Source of the DNA: Octopus sinensis | Lineage: Eukaryota | Length of the DNA stretch: 22,964 bases | Assembly: GCF_006345805.1 (NCBI RefSeq) | Contig: NW_021824914.1 | Coordinates: 1-22,964, forward strand | Direction of reading: 5' to 3' | Notes under the pieces: model-generated | The model's input: only the letters and a program-made list of their open reading frames with translations | Told to the model about the DNA's origin: nothing | Databases searched by the model: none | Part shown: in pieces, positions 5,666 through 21,637 of the stretch | Layout of the letters: each line of letters opens with the position of its first letter | Numbering within the stretch: position 1 is the first letter of the stretch | Translations under genes and position numbers: made by a program

Positions 5666-6128
5666 GTTATTTTTCTTTTCTTTTACATGTTTCACTCATT
5701 TGACTGCGGCCATACTGGAGTACCACCTTTAGTCGAGCAAATCGACCCCAGGGTTTATTCTTTGTAAGCCTAGTATTTATTCTATCGGTCTCTATTGCCG
5801 AACCGCTAGGTTACGGGGACGTGAAGACACACCAGCATCGGTTGTCAAGCGATGTTGGGGGGGGGGAGCAAACACATACACACATGCATACATAATACAT
5901 ATATATATATGTATATGTATGTATATGTATATGTATATATATATATATATTATATATATATATATATATTATATATATACATGTATACGACGGGCTTCTT
6001 TCAGTTTCCGTCTACCAAATCCATTCACAAGGCTTTGGTCGGCCCGAGGCTATAGTAGAAGACACTTGCCCAAGGTGCCACGCCGTGGAACTGAACCCAG
6101 AACTATGTGGTTGGTAAGCAAGCTACTT

Positions 6129-6786
6129 TATTTCATTTCATTGGCCATGAAGGCCGTATACAGAGGGAGTAGCTTGCTGGCTGGACAAAAAACATTAATG
6201 AGATGAGTGATGAAAAGGATGGTATAAATGGGAGAAGGCAGAAGATGCCCGCCGATCTTCTGCTTCTCTAAAACATTGTTCCTTTTTTATTTTTTCAAAA
6301 CAAAAAACAACAAAACGAGGTATTAAACCTCTTACCCCATTTCTACAATTGCTGGACTAAATAGTCCATTACAAATTGAGGCGCAGAGCCTCTTATAAAT
6401 AATAAACATTCAGGCACTAAAGCCTCTTTATCCTTCCTCCCCGACCAGGCCGTATGCCTCCTGCAGGCAATGCTCCAGCTCCAGATCGGGGGCCCAGAAG
6501 GCGAACCTAAACTGGTCCTTCGGAAAGGAGCCCATCACCCTGAACAAACCGACGTCCGTAGTCACCTGCGGAGGCCAATCCGGGTCTTCAGTCCAAGGTA
6601 TGGTCTCCTCCCTCCGGCCTTCTAGCTTCCTCAAAAAGCTCTGAATTGCCCCTCCCTTATGAAAGAAGATAACAAAATCATCTATCGTGGCTCTGGGAGG
6701 GGGCCATAGTTTCCTCTGTCGGCACACTTCCCACCAACGAGGTTTCAGGACACGCTGGCAGTGTACCAACAACCGCCGGCAATGCC
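6129..6786 (-). mobile_element. 5'-truncated retroposed insert with a 16-bp TSD and a Tx1-like 3' terminus
   Basis: Flanked by GGTAAGCAAGCTACTT (6113-6128) and GGTAAGCAAGATACTT (6787-6802); intact SINE copies have this 16-mer once. Minus strand ends GGCC-TTCAT-GGCC-AATGAAATGAAATAAA. Confidence 0.85.
6428..6786 (-). CDS. C-terminal fragment (about 119 aa) of an unrecognised element-encoded protein
   Basis: GC-rich, non-repetitive frame open from the 5' junction (..HCRRLLVHCQRVLKPRWWEVC..) to TAA at 6428-6430; no RT, endonuclease or zf-RVT motif; the track's TTG start is not a true start. Confidence 0.55.
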
Positions 6787-6866
6787 GGTAAGCAAGATAC
6801 TTACCACACAGCCACTCTGTGGAACACCAATGTTTTACTGGAAGTAGCAGCCGATAGTTTTACGAC

Positions 6867-6928: not shown

Positions 6929-9571
6929 TGTTTCTTTATTAGCCACACAGGGCTGCACACAGATAGAACAAATTACAAGGTAGAGCTTTTCTTTTGAAGG
7001 TTTAAAAAAAAAAAAAAGGAAGGGGGAGTTTCGATCAAAAGGGATCGTAAAAGGAGAGAAAGAGGACAAAAAAAGGGGGGTTAAAAAAAAAGGGGGAGGT
7101 TAAAAAAAAAAAATTTGATCAATAGGGATCGTTATCACAGAAATGTCAATATGAAGTGTAAAGGGGAGGACAGGTGAGGTTTACCCGTGGAAAGAAAAGC
7201 CTACGGAAAAGACCACGGTAACCTCGGTCAATGGAGTCACATGTTATATTTCTTTTTTTTTTTTTTTTTTCACGAATAAGCAACTCTCTGTTTTCAATTT
7301 CTGGGTTCATAGGATCATGCTCAAGGTGGCTTCGTCATTCATACGTGCCATTCTTGCTACATTCACCCATCTTTTTTTTAAACATTCGCTAGACAAAACT
7401 TGCCTCGCTACTCTCACTTTCCTTTTCAAGTGGTACTTGAAGAAGTTGATGAGAGATTGACCAGAGAGGAAAGTGTTTGTCTCCAATCCTTTCAGACGCG
7501 TCCACCAGATACATTCTTTCGCCATAGCCACAAGGATGATGAAAATAGCTCTTCCTTCCCGTTTGAAGGAAGGAGGCGTGACAATATTGACGATAGACTC
7601 AGCTGATAAACCGACTCGTCCCACACGTGACAGCAGTTGTTAGACATAAACCCACAGGTCGGAAATTGTTGGACACTGCACGAGTGCGTGCAGAACGGTT
7701 TCGTCGCTCTGACCGCATCTCGGGCAGGTCGGCCCCGTGTTTCTCGAGCCGTGTCTGTAGAGCTTATCCCGAACGGGTAGCGCTTCTCGGTAGCACTGCC
7801 AGGCCAGGGATCTCTGGAAGTTGTCCATGGGCCCTGGCCCGAAAGTCGTCCCTGAACAGGGGGTCAGGTACTCCTCGTCGACGTACAGGTTCGCCCCGAG
7901 CTCGTCGTCGTACCTCCCACCTCCCTCTCCACTAAACCCTATAGAATGCTTTGGTTGTGTTGAAGTCACGCAAGGTCGACCCAGGACGGCAGAGTTGCTT
8001 GAGAGCAACGCGACACTCGCGGTGCCATTCGCCCTTCCTCGGCCTCTTTTTGATCCACGACTGCAGTTCGGTCATGGAGACGAGCTGCGGGAAAGCGTGC
8101 CTCACAAACGGCGACCTCACCTGTTCACCGTCGTCTACGAAGAGCCAGAGATGTCGCAGTCTCAGCGCGTGTCTGCGCATCATCAACCACGGCATGCCCA
8201 GCCCTCCTTTTAACGGGTGTTGACAGCAAATGGATCGCCTGACCATCGGGACGCATCCTTTCCACAAGAAGCGAAAGAGAATGCGTTCTAGTTTGGTGAT
8301 GGTAGGGTCGGAACAAGGTACGACGGTCAGGCGTTAGTAGATGACGGACGCGATGTACGTTTTCGCCACCTCCGCCCGACCTTTTAGGTCCTCTCGGCCC
8401 ATTGCCGGGCGAGAGTGACCAACCTACTCGTTATCTCGTTCCAGTTCTTCTCCACTTGGAGGTCCGGACCAAACCAGACCCCGAGCAACTCAACCGGGCC
8501 GTCGGTCCAGCGTCCCACGACGGAGGCGCTGGTGGACGGCATGGGCTTTTCTCTCCAGGTGCCTAGTCGCAAGCCCACTGACTTTTCCCGGTTGATTTTC
8601 GCTCCTGTCACCCTTCGTAGTTTTTCAGTGTCTCGCCGACCTGCTCGATGTGCTCGTGGCTAGACACTATGACGATGACGTCGTCCGCGTATGCAGACAC
8701 GCTCGTCCCGCATCCCAGTTCTCGCGGGATGCCTCTCAAGGTTGCCAGCTTCCGCAATAATGGCTCGAGAGTCAATACGTATAGAAGCGACGAGAGGGGG
8801 CATCCTTGACGGACCGAACGTGCGATGTCGAAGGGTCTCGATAATGTCCATTCACGCGAATAACCGAACGGATGCCTCTGTACAAAGCGGCTATCCAGCC
8901 GCGGAAGACGGGACGAAGCCAGCCGCTCCGAGGACCGCCTCCAAGTATCGATGGTCCACCCTATCGAAAGCTTTCGATTGATCCAAATTGATCAGCGCCC
9001 CACCCATGCCAGGTTCGTTAACTACCCTGTCTATGATGTAGCGCATCAGGTGGAGGTTGTCATGGATGGTCCGGCCTGGCACGGCCATGTTTGCGCCTTG
9101 TCGACCAGTTTTCTCGATGACAAGCGCCAACCTCTTGGCTAGCACCTTGGCCAAAATTTTCTTTCTGCATTAAGCAGAGTGATGGCCTAAAGTTATCTAT
9201 TACATTTCCCTTGTTTAGATCTTTCTTCAGCAGTGTTACAGCTCCTCGGCTCACAAAACCAGGAATGCTCCCGTTTTGCTGCCAGTTGCTGTACACTGCC
9301 GCCAAGAGATCTCCAAACAAGTCTGGCATACAATTGTAAAGCTCGTAGGGTAGACCATCCAAACCCGGTGATTTGTCCCTCGAGCATTCTGCCATCGCTT
9401 CCTGCACTTCCGCCGCCGTGATGGCACCTTCGCAGCACCCTGCCTTTCTTGTCGAGAGTCGTGGTAGGCTATGTAGGTAGGCACTGAAGTCCACCTACGT
9501 TCTTGCCCTCCACTCGTTCCGAACAGTCGGGCAAAATGCTGCTGAAAGGCCTCACACATTTTACTTGGCTC
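6929..9571 (-). mobile_element. Tx1-like (L1 superfamily) non-LTR retrotransposon, copy 1, 5'-truncated
   Basis: RT motifs KSPGLDGLPYELY, LDQSKAFDRVDHRYL, RQGCPLS and YADD (8680-8691), then C-terminal CPRC..ETVLHALVQC (zf-RVT-type), a U-rich 3' UTR and AATAAA; no endonuclease or ORF1. Confidence 0.9.
7307..9571 (-). pseudogene. Frameshifted ORF2 (reverse transcriptase plus zf-RVT) of Tx1-like copy 1
   Basis: Coding similarity is split over minus-strand ORFs 9251-9559, 9060-9494, 8891-9154, 8384-8611, 7932-8267, 7640-8008 and 7307-7624. Confidence 0.9.

Positions 9572-9644
<73 letters not shown>
9572..9644. repeat. Perfect (GATA)n tract at the 5' truncation point of Tx1 copy 1
   Basis: About 18 perfect units directly adjoining coding sequence (EPSKMCEAFQQHF on the minus strand). 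Confidence 0.95.
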
Positions 9645-15071: not shown

Positions 15072-15769
15072 AGAGGTGGGGAAAGACTGAAAGAGTGATT
15101 ATGTGAAAAAAAGAGAGATGAGTAGCCAGAGAGGGGGAAACAAAAATGTGTGGCGGGAGAGTCGACATCGGTCGATATCGAGTTTAACCTGGTGGAACCC
15201 ATAAAACTTATTAAAACTCAGCTGAAGCATATCTCATATCTCATCAATGTTAATCCATGATGTCAGCCATCTTGGAACCGATCATTATAGAATCGCCTAT
15301 CCCTCCATACTCCTACTCCTCCGCAACACACGCATTGGCACCCTATCCCTGCGATTATTCACCATATTAACTACCACATACAACTATCCTATTATTCAAC
15401 TTCCGGTAACAATCAAAAACATATAGACAGATGGCGTGTAATGTTAACAGGTTCAGTAGTGATATTACTGGCTTCTCTTGCTTTACGGAGACTCTCGTTA
15501 CGGAATCTGCACTTACGGAAATGTTATGTGCGATCACACGTTTCGGAATTCGGTCAGTGATCCTATCCATAGAAAAATTAACAATTTTAAAAACTGAATT
15601 TATGATAGATATATAGGGTGTAGTGAATAAACTGTCGTATAAATTACGCAAAAATGAAAATAACGCTGACATCTCATTTTAACTGATATATTTACCAAAA
15701 TTACACAAAAATATCTTGAAATACTAACGAGTAAATTTTTCAATAAAATCGCCTTTGGCTTTAATCACT

Positions 15770-16068
15770 GTCTCCAGATAATTGATTTTACAGTCCCAAA
15801 TGAAGAAAAAATCAATATGAGAGGTACAGAAAAAATATCAAAGTGCCAGGACCTAGCCATTGAATTACAGAGACTATGGAAAGTGCGGGTAAAATGTATC
15901 CCAGTAGTTATAGGTGCATTAGGGACTGTCCCTAAAGATTTGAAGAAATGGATAAAGGAAATAGGCATAAGACCCAGTTTTGTACAGCTCCAGAAAACAG
16001 TGTTATAAGGGATAGCTAGGATACTTAGAAGGATTTTGGCATCTAAGGTTACTTGTTGTAGTCCGATG
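15770..16068 (+). mobile_element. R4/Dong-like LINE 3' fragment (C-terminus of the restriction-like endonuclease)
   Basis: IIDFTVP..EKISKCQDLAIELQRLW..IPVVIGALG..LQKTVL*GIARILRRIL is the typical C-terminus of RLE-type R4-clade ORFs; in-frame stop present. Confidence 0.85.
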
Positions 16069-16712: not shown

Positions 16713-18176
16713 TTGAAACTATGTGAGAAGGATGAGACACAAGTGAGTTCCTTGGTGAATACGGACCACTGTTTTAGTACTGATATTGGAATGGAGTTTG
16801 GACTCAAGTAGTGCAGAATAATCTATTTAAAAAGAGGAAAGGTACAGTCCCAAGTAGGAATAGAATTACCGAATAGAGACTTGATTAAACAAATTGAAAC
16901 AGAAGGCTACAAATACCTTGGTGTACTAGAGTTCAATGTGATAATGGGAAAAGAAATGAAAGATCAACTGAGGGTGGAACATTTCTGAAGACTAAGGTTG
17001 GCATTGCACTCAAAATTGACTGGACGGAATAAAATCCAAGCAGTTAATATGTGGGCGATAGCATCACTTCGGTATGGAGCAGGAATTATAAAATGACAAA
17101 AGGGAGAATTATGAAAAGGGATACCAAGACTAGAAAAATATTGATAGTACACGGAGCCTTCCACCCTAAGAGTCATACCGATAGGCTGTACTTGTCCAAG
17201 AGAAAGGGTGGAAAAAGTCTGATCAGTTGCCAGGATTGTATCGAAGCAGAAGTAAACAGCTCAGGGTGGTATATAAAAAAACGCCGTGGAACCATTGTTG
17301 AAATATACAAAGCAGGCCGGCGTCATCAAAACTGAAAATTGTGTAATGAAAGAAAAATTTAAACAAGAAATGAACAGCAGAAAAAAAAAAAAAAATGTAC
17401 GGTCAGTTTGCAAGAGATGTGAACGCGAAGACAAATATAGAAGACCGGATGAGGAGGAGTGACCTGAAAATAGAGACAGAAGCACTCATTTGCGCACCTC
17501 AAGAACAAGCGTTAAGAACCAACTATGTTAAGTGCAAAATAGACAACACTACCGACAGCGACAAATGCAGAATTAGGTGAGAGGAGTGAAACGGTATGGC
17601 ACATCGTTAGCGAATACCCGAAATTGGTGCAAGTCGAATACAATAGACGCCATGACAATGTGGCAAGAATGATCCATTGGGAGCTCTGTGGAAATCAGGG
17701 CCAACAAAGAGCAAATACATGGTATGAACAAACCCCAGAAGGATTCAACGAAAATGAGAGCTGCAAAATCCTGTGGGATGCAACAATCCAGCGCAATCAC
17801 ATGACCAGATATCGAAAACCGGATATTGCTATAGTGAATAAGAAAGAAAGAAAAAATACCATGCTCCAGTGATAACAGGATCAATATGAAAGAAGAAAAA
17901 CTAAACAACCAGGACGAGTTAAAGGGGGAAATACGAAGAGTTGACGTAATACCAATAGTAATTTGTGCACTTGAACTACCAACATGGCTAAAAAAAGATT
18001 ATGGCAAGTGTTGAAGTAGAAGACCTTCAAAATTCAGCATTGCTTGGAACTGCAAGAATTCTTTACAGGGTTTTTAAAGCATAACCAGTAAACAAGTGTC
18101 CCCTTAGTGCTGCTGGCTGTAGACAGTTGACACTTTCCATCATACCCAACAAAATAAGCCGTGAGTTTTCATCAAA
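16713..18176 (+). mobile_element. R4/Dong-like non-LTR retrotransposon, 5'-truncated and degenerate
   Basis: Starts just after the RT catalytic DD (LKL..DIGMEFGLK..YKYLG..SKLTGRNKIQAVN), then ETEALICAPQEQALRTNY, a zinc-knuckle remnant, RRHDNVARMIHWELC, KILWD..RKPDI (RLE) and LQNSALLGTARIL; many stops and frameshifts. Confidence 0.9.
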
Positions 18177-19777: not shown

Positions 19778-19837
19778 AAGCTCTACTTTGTATTTTGTCC
19801 CCTCGGTGTTCAGCCCTGTGTGGCTAATAAAGATACA
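19778..19837 (+). mobile_element. Tx1-like element copy 3, terminal ~60 bp only
   Basis: AAGCTCTACTTTGTATTTTGTCC..CAGCCCTGTGTGGCTAATAAAGATACA matches the 3' ends of copies 1 and 2; (TATC)n on both sides. Confidence 0.85.
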
Positions 19838-20188
19838 TATCTATCTATCTCTGCATACACATATAAATATTTATACAAATATATATGGGTGTAGATGTAC
19901 ACGTAAGTATATGTGAGTGTGAGAGTGTGTACGCGTGTGAGAGTGTGCATGTATAGATGTATATTTGGTTGTGCATGCGTATATATGTGTTGTTTGTGCG
20001 TGTGTGTATTTGTGTGTGTGTATGTGTGTGCGCGTGAAAACAAATCGCCGTTATCTTACAGCACAGCCTCAATACTACGTAAGATAAAGACATGGGGAGA
20101 AATGTTACTTGATGTTGTTAGGATATAGGGTAATGCAATGACCCAGTCTTCGAAAAATAGGATAATACTACAATTAATGAAACATTGC

Positions 20189-20399: not shown

Positions 20400-21554
20400 A
20401 ATGGGCCGAGAGGAAACTGTCCCTAAAAGGTCGGGCGGAGGTGGTGAACACGTACATCGCGTCCGTCATCTACTACCGCCTGACCGTCGTGCCTTGTCCC
20501 AACCCTACCATCACCAAACTAGAACGCATTCTCTTTCGCTTCTTGTGGAAAGGATGCGTCCCGATGGTCAGGCGAACCTGTACGTCGATGAGGAGTACCT
20601 GACCCGCCTGTTCGGGACGACTTTCGGGCCAGGGCCCATGGACAACTTCCAGAGATCCCTGGCCTGGCAGTGCTACCGAGAAGCGCTACCCGTTCGGGAT
20701 AAGCTCTGCAGACACGGCTCGAGAAACACGGGGCCGACCTGCCCGAGATGCGGTCAGAGCGACAAAACCGTTCTGCACGCACTCGTGCAGTGTCCAACCA
20801 TTTCCGACCTGTGGGCTTATGTCGAACAACTGCTGTCACGTGTGGAACGAGTTGGTTTATCAGCTGAGTCTATCGTCAATATTGTCACGCCTCCTTCCTT
20901 CAAACGGGAAGGAAGAGCTATTTTCATCATCCTTGTGGCTATGGCGAAAGAATGTATCTGGTGGACGCGTCTGAAAGGATTGGAGACAAACACTTTCCTC
21001 TCTGGTCAATCTCTCATCAACTTCTTCAAGTACCACTTGAAAAAGAAAGTGAGAGTAGAGAGGCAAGTTTTGTCTAGTGAATGTTTTAAAAAAAGATGGG
21101 TGAATGTGGCAAGGATGGCACGTATGAATGACGAAGCCACCTTGAGCATAATCCTATGAACCCAGAAATTGAAAACAGAGGGTTACCCACTTGCAAACAA
21201 ATGTGGTAACATATAACAATATTGACCGAGATTACCGTGGTTTTTTTCGTAGGCTTTTCTTCCCACGGATAAACCTTATCTGCTTCCAACCTTTACACCG
21301 TTCATCATGACACTGTGATACACGATCCCTATTGATCGTTTTTTTTCCTCTTCCCCTTTTTTCCTCTTTTTTCTTCTTTTTCTCTTTTTTCTTTTCTTTT
21401 GTTTCGTTTCCTTTTTTTCTTTTTTTTCCTTTTTCCCTTTTACGATCACTTTTGATCGAAAACCTACGCCACTTTTTTTTCATCCCCCAAAAGAAAAGCT
21501 CTACCTTGTAATTTGTCCCATCTGTGTGCAGCCCTGTGTGGCCAATAAAGAAAC

Positions 21555-21555
<1 letters not shown>
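20399..21555 (+). mobile_element. Tx1-like LINE copy 2, 5'-truncated with an internal deletion
   Basis: QWAERKLSLKGRAEVVNTYIASVIYY.., then NLYVDEEYL..CPRCGQSDKTVLHALVQC..ATLSIIL* (stop ends at 21159); nearly identical to copy 1 in ORF2; AATAAA at 21544-21549. Confidence 0.9.

Positions 21556-21637
<82 letters not shown>

What the first reader, a model, noticed from the sequence alone, without database searches (positions are those of the whole stretch)
6129..6786. Retroposed element whose terminal ORF is not a reverse transcriptase, nested between a SINE's A and B boxes
Seen: a 658-bp insert with a 16-bp TSD (one mismatch), 5'-truncated mid-ORF, in the same orientation as the host SINE and just downstream of its A box. 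The ~119-aa C-terminus (WWEVCRQRKLWPPP..IPWTEDPDWPP..FRFAFWAPDLELEHCLQEAYGL) is unlike the zf-RVT end of the neighbouring Tx1 ORF2, yet the terminal hairpin and AATRAA resemble the Tx1 tail. Established: ORF1-only non-autonomous L1 relatives (HAL1) exist, and Xenopus Tx1/Tx2 insert into other transposons. Inference: an ORF1-only or cargo-carrying element mobilised by Tx1 machinery that parasitises an abundant SINE.
Basis: partly seen in the sequence, partly recalled or inferred. Interest (0 to 1): 0.75.

Follow-up and report, generated by a model that had tools for sequence, protein, structure and literature searches.

The report
SINE-targeting retroposon with orphan protein
This is a broken-off copy of a repeated jumping-gene family that, with related elements, has landed repeatedly at one spot inside the genome's very common short repeat; it encodes an unidentified small protein and likely borrows its copying enzyme from a Tx1-type retrotransposon.

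Summary
A 658-bp insert (6129-6786, minus strand) with a 16-bp target duplication splits a SINE between A-box-like and B-box-like motifs. Contigs from four runs show a multicopy family, mostly 90-99% alike. Other copies run on past this 5' end. Elements with different bodies but related tails occupy the same SINE nick site, including a 29-nt tail-only insert. The tail matches the neighbouring Tx1 tails, and its hairpin's closing pair differs compensatorily between families.

The 118-codon ORF looks coding but is unassigned. It does not match octopod-type Tx1 ORF2 ends or any searched protein. However, a true Tx1 end also fails Pfam and fold search, so those blanks prove little. A weak, non-significant likeness to a dead half-endonuclease is a lead.

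The neighbouring Tx1 sits in (ATCT)n, so it is probably not the mobiliser. Non-autonomy is unproven because nothing beyond about 30 nt upstream could be read. Verdict: a target-specific Tx1-type retroposon guild with a new target and an unassigned last ORF; a new variant of a known kind.

The parts
6129..6786 (-). 5'-truncated copy of a multicopy retroposon family
   Evidence: TSD-bounded. Many diverged copies; records 6, 7 and 15 stop aligning at 6784 and continue in other letters.
6787..6802 (-). 5' copy of the 16-bp target site duplication (1 mismatch)
6113..6128 (-). 3' copy of the TSD; 6128/6129 is the nick site shared with other inserts
   Evidence: tables 5, 5c, 7
6428..6784 (-). Unassigned terminal ORF, 118 codons plus stop
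   Evidence: Other copies show in-frame +3 and +12 nt differences. No significant homologue.
6129..6427 (-). 3' UTR, 299 nt, 38% GC
6143..6155 (-). Terminal stem-loop (4-bp stem, 5-nt loop); closing pair G-C here, likely U-A in most laid tails, A-U in 2 of 3 Tx1 tails
   Evidence: (table 3)
6129..6142 (-). A-rich tail with two ATGAA units, ending at the TSD; no poly(A)
   Evidence: sequence
6168..6178 (-). 11-nt stretch of the 3' UTR complementary to the target top strand, 39 nt from the 3' end
   Evidence: p 0.0014-0.0019, post hoc; 10 nt in most copies because of a majority change at 6178
6803..6817 (-). 5' piece of host SINE head with A-box-like motif 6815-6804
5700..6112 (-). 3' remainder of host SINE with B-box-like motif 6097-6088
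   Evidence: (94% to the SINE copy at 12745-12580)
6929..9572 (-). Neighbouring 5'-truncated Tx1-type LINE (RT, zf-RVT) in (ATCT)n; context and comparison, a separate insertion

Best explanation
The insert is a 5'-truncated copy of a multicopy retroposon family that, together with related elements, has inserted repeatedly at one position in the head of an abundant SINE; it is likely non-autonomous and likely copied by the reverse transcriptase and site-specific endonuclease of a separate Tx1-type LINE. Shown: the TSD, the split SINE, many diverged copies, 5' truncation, other tail-sharing inserts at the same base, a Tx1-like tail, and a coding-like last ORF that does not match the known Tx1 ORF2 end. 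Inferred: the partner's ORF2 protein binds the 3' stem-loop, nicks the SINE just after the A box, and reverse transcribes from that nick; the second-strand cut about 16 nt away makes the TSD. The likely partner is among the roughly tenfold more abundant tail-sharing families, not the (ATCT)n-targeting neighbour. The roughly 10^5-copy SINE would be a nearly harmless target. The last ORF is likely an ORF1 end or a decayed piece of a Tx1 protein; the best lead, weak, is a catalytically dead N-terminal half of the endonuclease.
For: TSD and SINE continuity. laid 1843, 2615, 1502 and 2654 contigs from 4 runs (SINE-flank contigs included), with depth in all 30 bins. Summed depth over the body is about 20-100 times single-contig depth, over the last 30 nt about 160-1000 times, and over the SINE about 10^5 times (rough, as the tool says depth is no copy number). 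Contigs anchored on SINE, TSD and tail end diverge after 6136 into a related tail in 4 of 4 runs (8, 15, 12, 17 contigs). A 29-nt tail-only insert joins 6128 to 6790 in run X2. Tail similarity and closing-pair changes. No match to Tx1 ORF2 profiles: hhalign E 0.46 and 0.33, hmmsearch none, ungapped p 0.37-0.56. AlphaFold predicts alpha/beta for the insert and all-helix for a true Tx1 end (both low confidence). Precedent: Tx1 families target other transposons and mobilise SINEU-3, whose expected TSD is 16 nt (PMC4494074, passages); ORF1-only HAL1 exists (PMC5753468, passages); LINE ORF2 binds a 3' stem-loop (PMC4176376, abstract).
Against: The 5' part of the family was never read, so absence of RT is not shown. 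No partner LINE was recovered. The tail motif also occurs in 6 of 6 metagenome hits that lack a Tx1 ORF and this SINE. What share of family copies sit at the SINE site is unknown; records 8 and 24 could be an orthologous locus rather than a new insertion. Selection on the ORF is only suggestive: 9 of 21 shown variants synonymous (p 0.03-0.11), 11 of 21 at third positions (p 0.056), with 421 variants not shown; frameshifting joints exist too. The endonuclease likeness is not significant (p 0.07-0.37 against the whole ORF2).
Confidence: 0.45

Rival explanations
1. The family is an autonomous, SINE-targeting Tx1-type LINE. The 118 codons are an unusual C-terminal extension of ORF2, or an extra small ORF after it, and the RT lies upstream of the truncation.
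For: Tx1-like tail, 16-bp TSD, 299-nt UTR similar in size and GC to the Tx1 UTRs of 378 and 397 nt. In-frame indels between copies fit an ORF under selection. A true Tx1 end is equally invisible to Pfam and Foldseek. An Atlas search of residues 22-112 gave one weak cluster, score 0.76, 15% of members carrying RVT_1 (lead only).
Against: 9 of 11 octopod-type relatives end 120 aa after the knuckle and the other 2 at 149, with no similarity to this ORF. The loose end upstream of 6784 reads as a basic or A-rich run without a knuckle (8 contigs, median 10 nt, weak). Predicted secondary structure differs from the true end.
Confidence: 0.3
2. It is the 3' end of a LINE of another clade (L2/CR1 group or similar) with a stem-loop plus short-repeat tail, whose ORF2 end has diverged beyond recognition.
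For: The tail is a 5-nt repeat rather than poly(A), as recalled for L2/CR1-type LINEs. The stem-loop motif occurs in unrelated animal repeats. The weak Atlas lead points to mostly cnidarian RT-associated proteins.
Against: No hit among 1.84 billion representatives apart from one bacterial protein. A long TSD and a fixed target are recalled as atypical of L2/CR1. The closest tail in the window belongs to Tx1.
Confidence: 0.12
3. It is a retrocopy of an ordinary host or foreign gene (for example a cupredoxin).
For: The single phmmer hit is a bacterial multi-cupredoxin protein, E 4e-7 summed over 3 stretches.
Against: Multicopy family with subfamilies and a LINE-type tail, no poly(A). No octopod host protein hit although octopod proteins are in the collection. 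No Pfam cupredoxin hit. Several aligned residues are private to this copy (codons 61, 77, 79, 80, 85).
Confidence: 0.03

Closest known systems
Tx1-clade target-specific LINEs (Xenopus Tx1 in Tx1D; crocodilian Tx1-Mar in Mariner-N4; Keno, Kibi, Koshi), PMC4494074 passages
   Same: Repeated insertion at a fixed position in another repeat; long TSD; tail shared with a Tx1 family in the same window.
   Different: The target is a tRNA-like SINE head, which was not among the targets in the passages read. The last ORF is not the known ORF2 end, and RT and endonuclease are not shown.
SINEU-3 with its Tx1-Mar partner (PMC4494074 passages)
   Same: A passenger sharing a Tx1 target; expected TSD of 16 nt.
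   Different: SINEU has an snRNA-derived head and a poly(A) tail; this element has a coding-like ORF and a stem-loop tail.
HAL1, half-L1 (PMC5753468 passages)
   Same: Would be a protein-coding non-autonomous relative of the L1/Tx1 group.
   Different: HAL1 is described from mammals and encodes ORF1p; here no ORF1 domain was detected and non-autonomy is not shown.
Dada DNA transposons (PMC8869645 passages)
   Same: Target the A-box and anticodon regions of tRNA genes, the same neighbourhood as this site.
   Different: DNA transposons with short TSDs in true tRNA genes, not retroposed elements in a SINE.

Membership tests
Retroposed non-LTR element | TSD, 5' truncation, intact 3' tail, multicopy | tested here: met
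Tx1 clade (autonomous) | ORF2 with APE endonuclease and RT grouping with Tx1 | not testable with these tools
   No genome held; upstream part not recovered.
Tx1 clade (autonomous) | Last ORF ends in the zf-RVT knuckle plus about 120 conserved residues | tested here: not met
   No match to octopod-type profiles. The test covers that lineage only, and the knuckle itself would lie just outside the insert.
Tx1 clade (autonomous) | Fixed target in a repeat, with long TSD | tested here: met
   Independent tail-sharing inserts at the same base in 4 of 4 runs; the share of all copies at this site is unknown.
Tx1 clade (autonomous) | 3' tail shared with a Tx1 family | tested here: met
   motif not exclusive to Tx1
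HAL1-like ORF1-only element | Sole ORF homologous to ORF1p (RRM, knuckles) | tested here: inconclusive
   No Pfam hit; one RRM chain at E 0.59; no CCHC pattern; no Tx1 ORF1 was available to compare.
HAL1-like ORF1-only element | Full-length element lacks RT | not testable with these tools
   5' part unread
APE endonuclease domain | Significant similarity and catalytic E, Y, D, N, H residues | tested here: inconclusive
   Colinear but weak match to P0012 residues 17-108. In that register the catalytic residues are not kept and the ORF stops at the strand before the D/N motif.
Processed retrocopy | Parent gene and poly(A) tail | tested here: not met
   No poly(A) tail; no host protein hit; multicopy family. 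No genome was available to search for a parent.

The most novel reading that the evidence does not exclude
A guild of retroposons parasitises one site in the octopod's dominant SINE, and this member is a passenger that keeps a catalytically dead half-endonuclease under selection and carries a 3' UTR stretch that pairs with the displaced target strand, so that its own RNA helps choose the site.
Probability: 0.08. Interest if true: 0.78.

Novelty: new variant of a known kind. Interest (0 to 1): 0.42.

Why it matters
Tx1 elements are known to hide in other transposons, snRNA genes and microsatellites. A set of elements sharing one nick site in a roughly 10^5-copy SINE would add a new safe-haven target, split the SINE's promoter boxes, and give a new site-specific endonuclease to characterise. 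A selected, non-RT last ORF would be a new type of LINE passenger or an unknown LINE domain. It also matters for octopus repeat annotation: PMC13282606 lists 80 L1-Tx1 families, and the part read describes no targets.

Tried and rejected
No whole genome was held, so no full-length copy, site table or dN/dS could be made.

Protein searches, blank or chance level: Pfam, PHROGs, NCBIfam, word-index searches for longer and near-length proteins, phmmer on 1.84 billion (one cupredoxin hit, rejected), PDB sequences (one RRM at E 0.59), Atlas (dynein clusters with low recognition; score 0.76).

Folds: AlphaFold pLDDT 52. Foldseek PDB and viral gave no E below 0.001; VIA-align best Z 3.3 and 2.4. The control, a true Tx1 last 118 aa, also failed Pfam and Foldseek, so these blanks are uninformative.

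Locus scans for relatives: metagenomes, viral contigs, GTDB and plasmids found nothing. Tail-motif scans gave 6 unrelated animal-like repeats and 1 bacterial chance hit. Rfam gave nothing above gathering score. No RNA holder was listed, which is no evidence on expression.

An endonuclease profile could not be built. The endonuclease-only p values used the score of a different alignment and were redone. An eye-fit of the ORF start to the Tx1 ORF2 end was not significant.

Motif search in PMC9115989 supplements found nothing, but 4 of 8 files were skipped and the transcriptome archive gave 84 characters; unseen files may hold the family. PMC85248 was not held. Four look-ups of earlier findings returned nothing. 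Ten paper searches were run; no listing, and no passage read, described a SINE-targeting Tx1 in cephalopods. Repbase and subscription journals were not searchable.

Full report
Setting. The window is microsatellite-rich animal DNA with many copies of one SINE. The neighbouring LINE's closest named relatives are from Octopus bimaculoides (95% over 20% of the query) and Argonauta hians (61%), so an octopod host is inferred. No whole genome was held.

Observation. A search for near-exact repeats at both ends gave a 16-bp duplication at 6113-6128 and 6787-6802 with one mismatch, bounding 658 bp. Six other SINE copies in the window carry this 16-mer once, so it is a true target duplication. It lies between an A-box-like motif (6815-6804) and a B-box-like motif (6097-6088), all on the minus strand (box consensus recalled). 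One frame is open for 118 codons to a stop at 6430-6428. Such a frame arose in 0.64% of shuffles, and GC by codon position (0.60/0.44/0.66) resembles the Tx1 ORF2 piece at 7935-8330 (0.53/0.46/0.68), against 0.38 in the UTR.

It is a family. Thirteen of 24 listed runs hold part of the insert, none half or more of its words. Four were laid on 6100-6812. All 30 bins have depth in every run, most contigs are 90-99% alike, and the long pieces differ at about 10-17% of letters. Summed depth over the body is about 20-100 times single-contig depth, about 160-1000 times over the last 30 nt, and about 10^5 times over the SINE. These are orders of magnitude only; the tool warns that depth is no copy number. 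Three listed pieces stop aligning at 6784 and continue in other letters, so this copy is 5'-truncated. A loose end in run X3 (8 contigs, median 10 nt) continues the frame as Arg-Arg-Met-Gly after an A-rich run. The ORF may therefore be nearly whole (about 120 aa) or may follow a basic stretch; the data do not decide.

The site is reused. In 4 of 4 runs, contigs anchored on the SINE, the TSD and the last 8 nt of the tail diverge after 6136 into a related but different tail (8, 15, 12 and 17 contigs; 652 loose ends not shown). Joints from 6123 to 6790 appear in all four runs, and run X2 shows 29 tail-like letters between 6128 and 6790, a tail-only insert at the same base with a shorter duplication. 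Records 8 and 24 carry this family's body from 6105 to 6530 with 44-45 differences and 39 gap letters; they may be another insertion or an orthologue. What fraction of all copies sit at this site is not known.

The tail. The last 45 nt align to both Tx1 3' UTRs in the window (p 0.022 and 0.0003); the rest of the UTR aligns only weakly (p 0.012 and 0.064). A pattern made after the fact matches these three tails and 0 times in 100 shuffles. The hairpin is not unusually stable. Its closing pair is G-C here; both letters are changed in 68-93% of laid depth, giving U-A if linked (linkage not shown); and it is A-U in 2 of 3 Tx1 tails. That fits a recognised stem-loop, as shown for zebrafish LINEs (PMC4176376, abstract and passages). 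Against Tx1 exclusivity, a narrower form of the motif also hit 6 metagenome loci with neither Tx1 nor this SINE. The neighbouring Tx1 copies lie in (ATCT)n. Since the endonuclease mainly sets the target (PMC4494074, passage), a different family probably cuts the SINE site.

The ORF. Among the 40 variants shown (421 not shown), 21 fall in the ORF: 11 at third positions (p 0.056) and 9 synonymous (p 0.03-0.11). Of 12 indels shown (98 not shown), 1 is in the ORF and is 3 nt. One joint is net +12 nt, another shifts the frame, and 5 of 8 gapped pieces lying mainly in the ORF have gap totals divisible by three (some may be the same copy in two runs). Selection is suggested, not shown. Library and fold searches gave nothing significant, but a true Tx1 last 118 aa also failed Pfam and Foldseek. 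The informative negative is the direct comparison with octopod-type ORF2 profiles, backed weakly by alpha/beta versus all-helix predictions (pLDDT 52 and 42). The sole phmmer hit, a bacterial cupredoxin, rests on summed repeats and partly on letters private to this copy.

A lead. Residues 25-114 align colinearly with the N-terminal half of the endonuclease of a near-complete octopod-type Tx1 ORF2, P0012. BLASTP gives E 0.03. Shuffles give p 0.005-0.08 against the endonuclease alone (chosen after the fact) and 0.07-0.37 against the whole protein, and 64 of 3000 shuffles scored as well by phmmer. The +12-nt subfamily insertion falls in the gap where the endonuclease is longer (loose end before 6551). 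Catalytic residues are not kept in this register. This is not significant. A second oddity is an 11-nt UTR stretch (6168-6178) complementary to the target top strand (p about 0.002 in 20,000 shuffles, post hoc; 5-7 nt in the Tx1 controls). It is 10 nt in most copies, and the abundant tails diverge before it, so it is probably not required.

Mechanism and comparison. The most likely reading is target-primed reverse transcription by a SINE-site-specific Tx1-type ORF2 acting on several tail-sharing RNAs, with this family as a passenger (0.45). An autonomous element with an unusual end is close behind (0.3). Known Tx1 targets include piggyBac, Mariner, Harbinger and LTR elements, snRNA genes and microsatellites, and SINEU-3 rides on Tx1-Mar with an expected 16-nt TSD (PMC4494074, passages and section 20). 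HAL1 is the ORF1-only precedent (PMC5753468, passages). Dada DNA transposons target the same region of true tRNA genes (PMC8869645, passages). Octopus repeat papers were read in part: PMC13282606 (first third of text and a supplement term search), PMC8967140 and PMC9115989 (passages); none of what was read describes this target. Repbase could not be checked. The element works like a target-specific Tx1-type retroposon; membership of Tx1 or HAL1 is not established.

Verdict. Real, a new variant of a known kind, interest 0.42. The SINE-site guild is the best-supported new point; the nature of the ORF is open.

Noticed in passing
window 6129-6164, from contigs: Tail-sharing families about ten times more abundant than this one diverge after 6164 or 6136; the likely autonomous partner is among them.
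   Followed up: partly
window 6929-9572 (-), 20400-21556 (+), 19778-19841 (+): Three copies of a Tx1-type family, all ending in (ATCT)n: an apparently microsatellite-specific family.
   Followed up: partly
window about 15300-16010 and 17050-17900 (+): Decayed LINE pieces with motifs recalled as typical of restriction-like endonuclease elements (Dong/R4 type), near TAA-rich repeats; no supporting Pfam hit.
   Followed up: no
L001-L006: A repeat in metagenome contigs, apparently from another animal, carries the same stem-loop plus AATAAA motif without Tx1 or SINE similarity.
   Followed up: partly
P0007, P0016: Octopod-type Tx1 ORF2 pieces are labelled as Herbaspirillum proteins in public databases, likely host contamination of a metagenome bin.
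   Followed up: no
P0009: An Octopus bimaculoides gene model starts with a Tx1 ORF2 end fused to a sequence that looks by eye like a LINE ORF1; no Pfam hit.
   Followed up: no
table 5c, joints 6812 to 6100/6105: Contigs with tandem repeats of the SINE head segment around the same target region, one at depth 442 in run X5.
   Followed up: no
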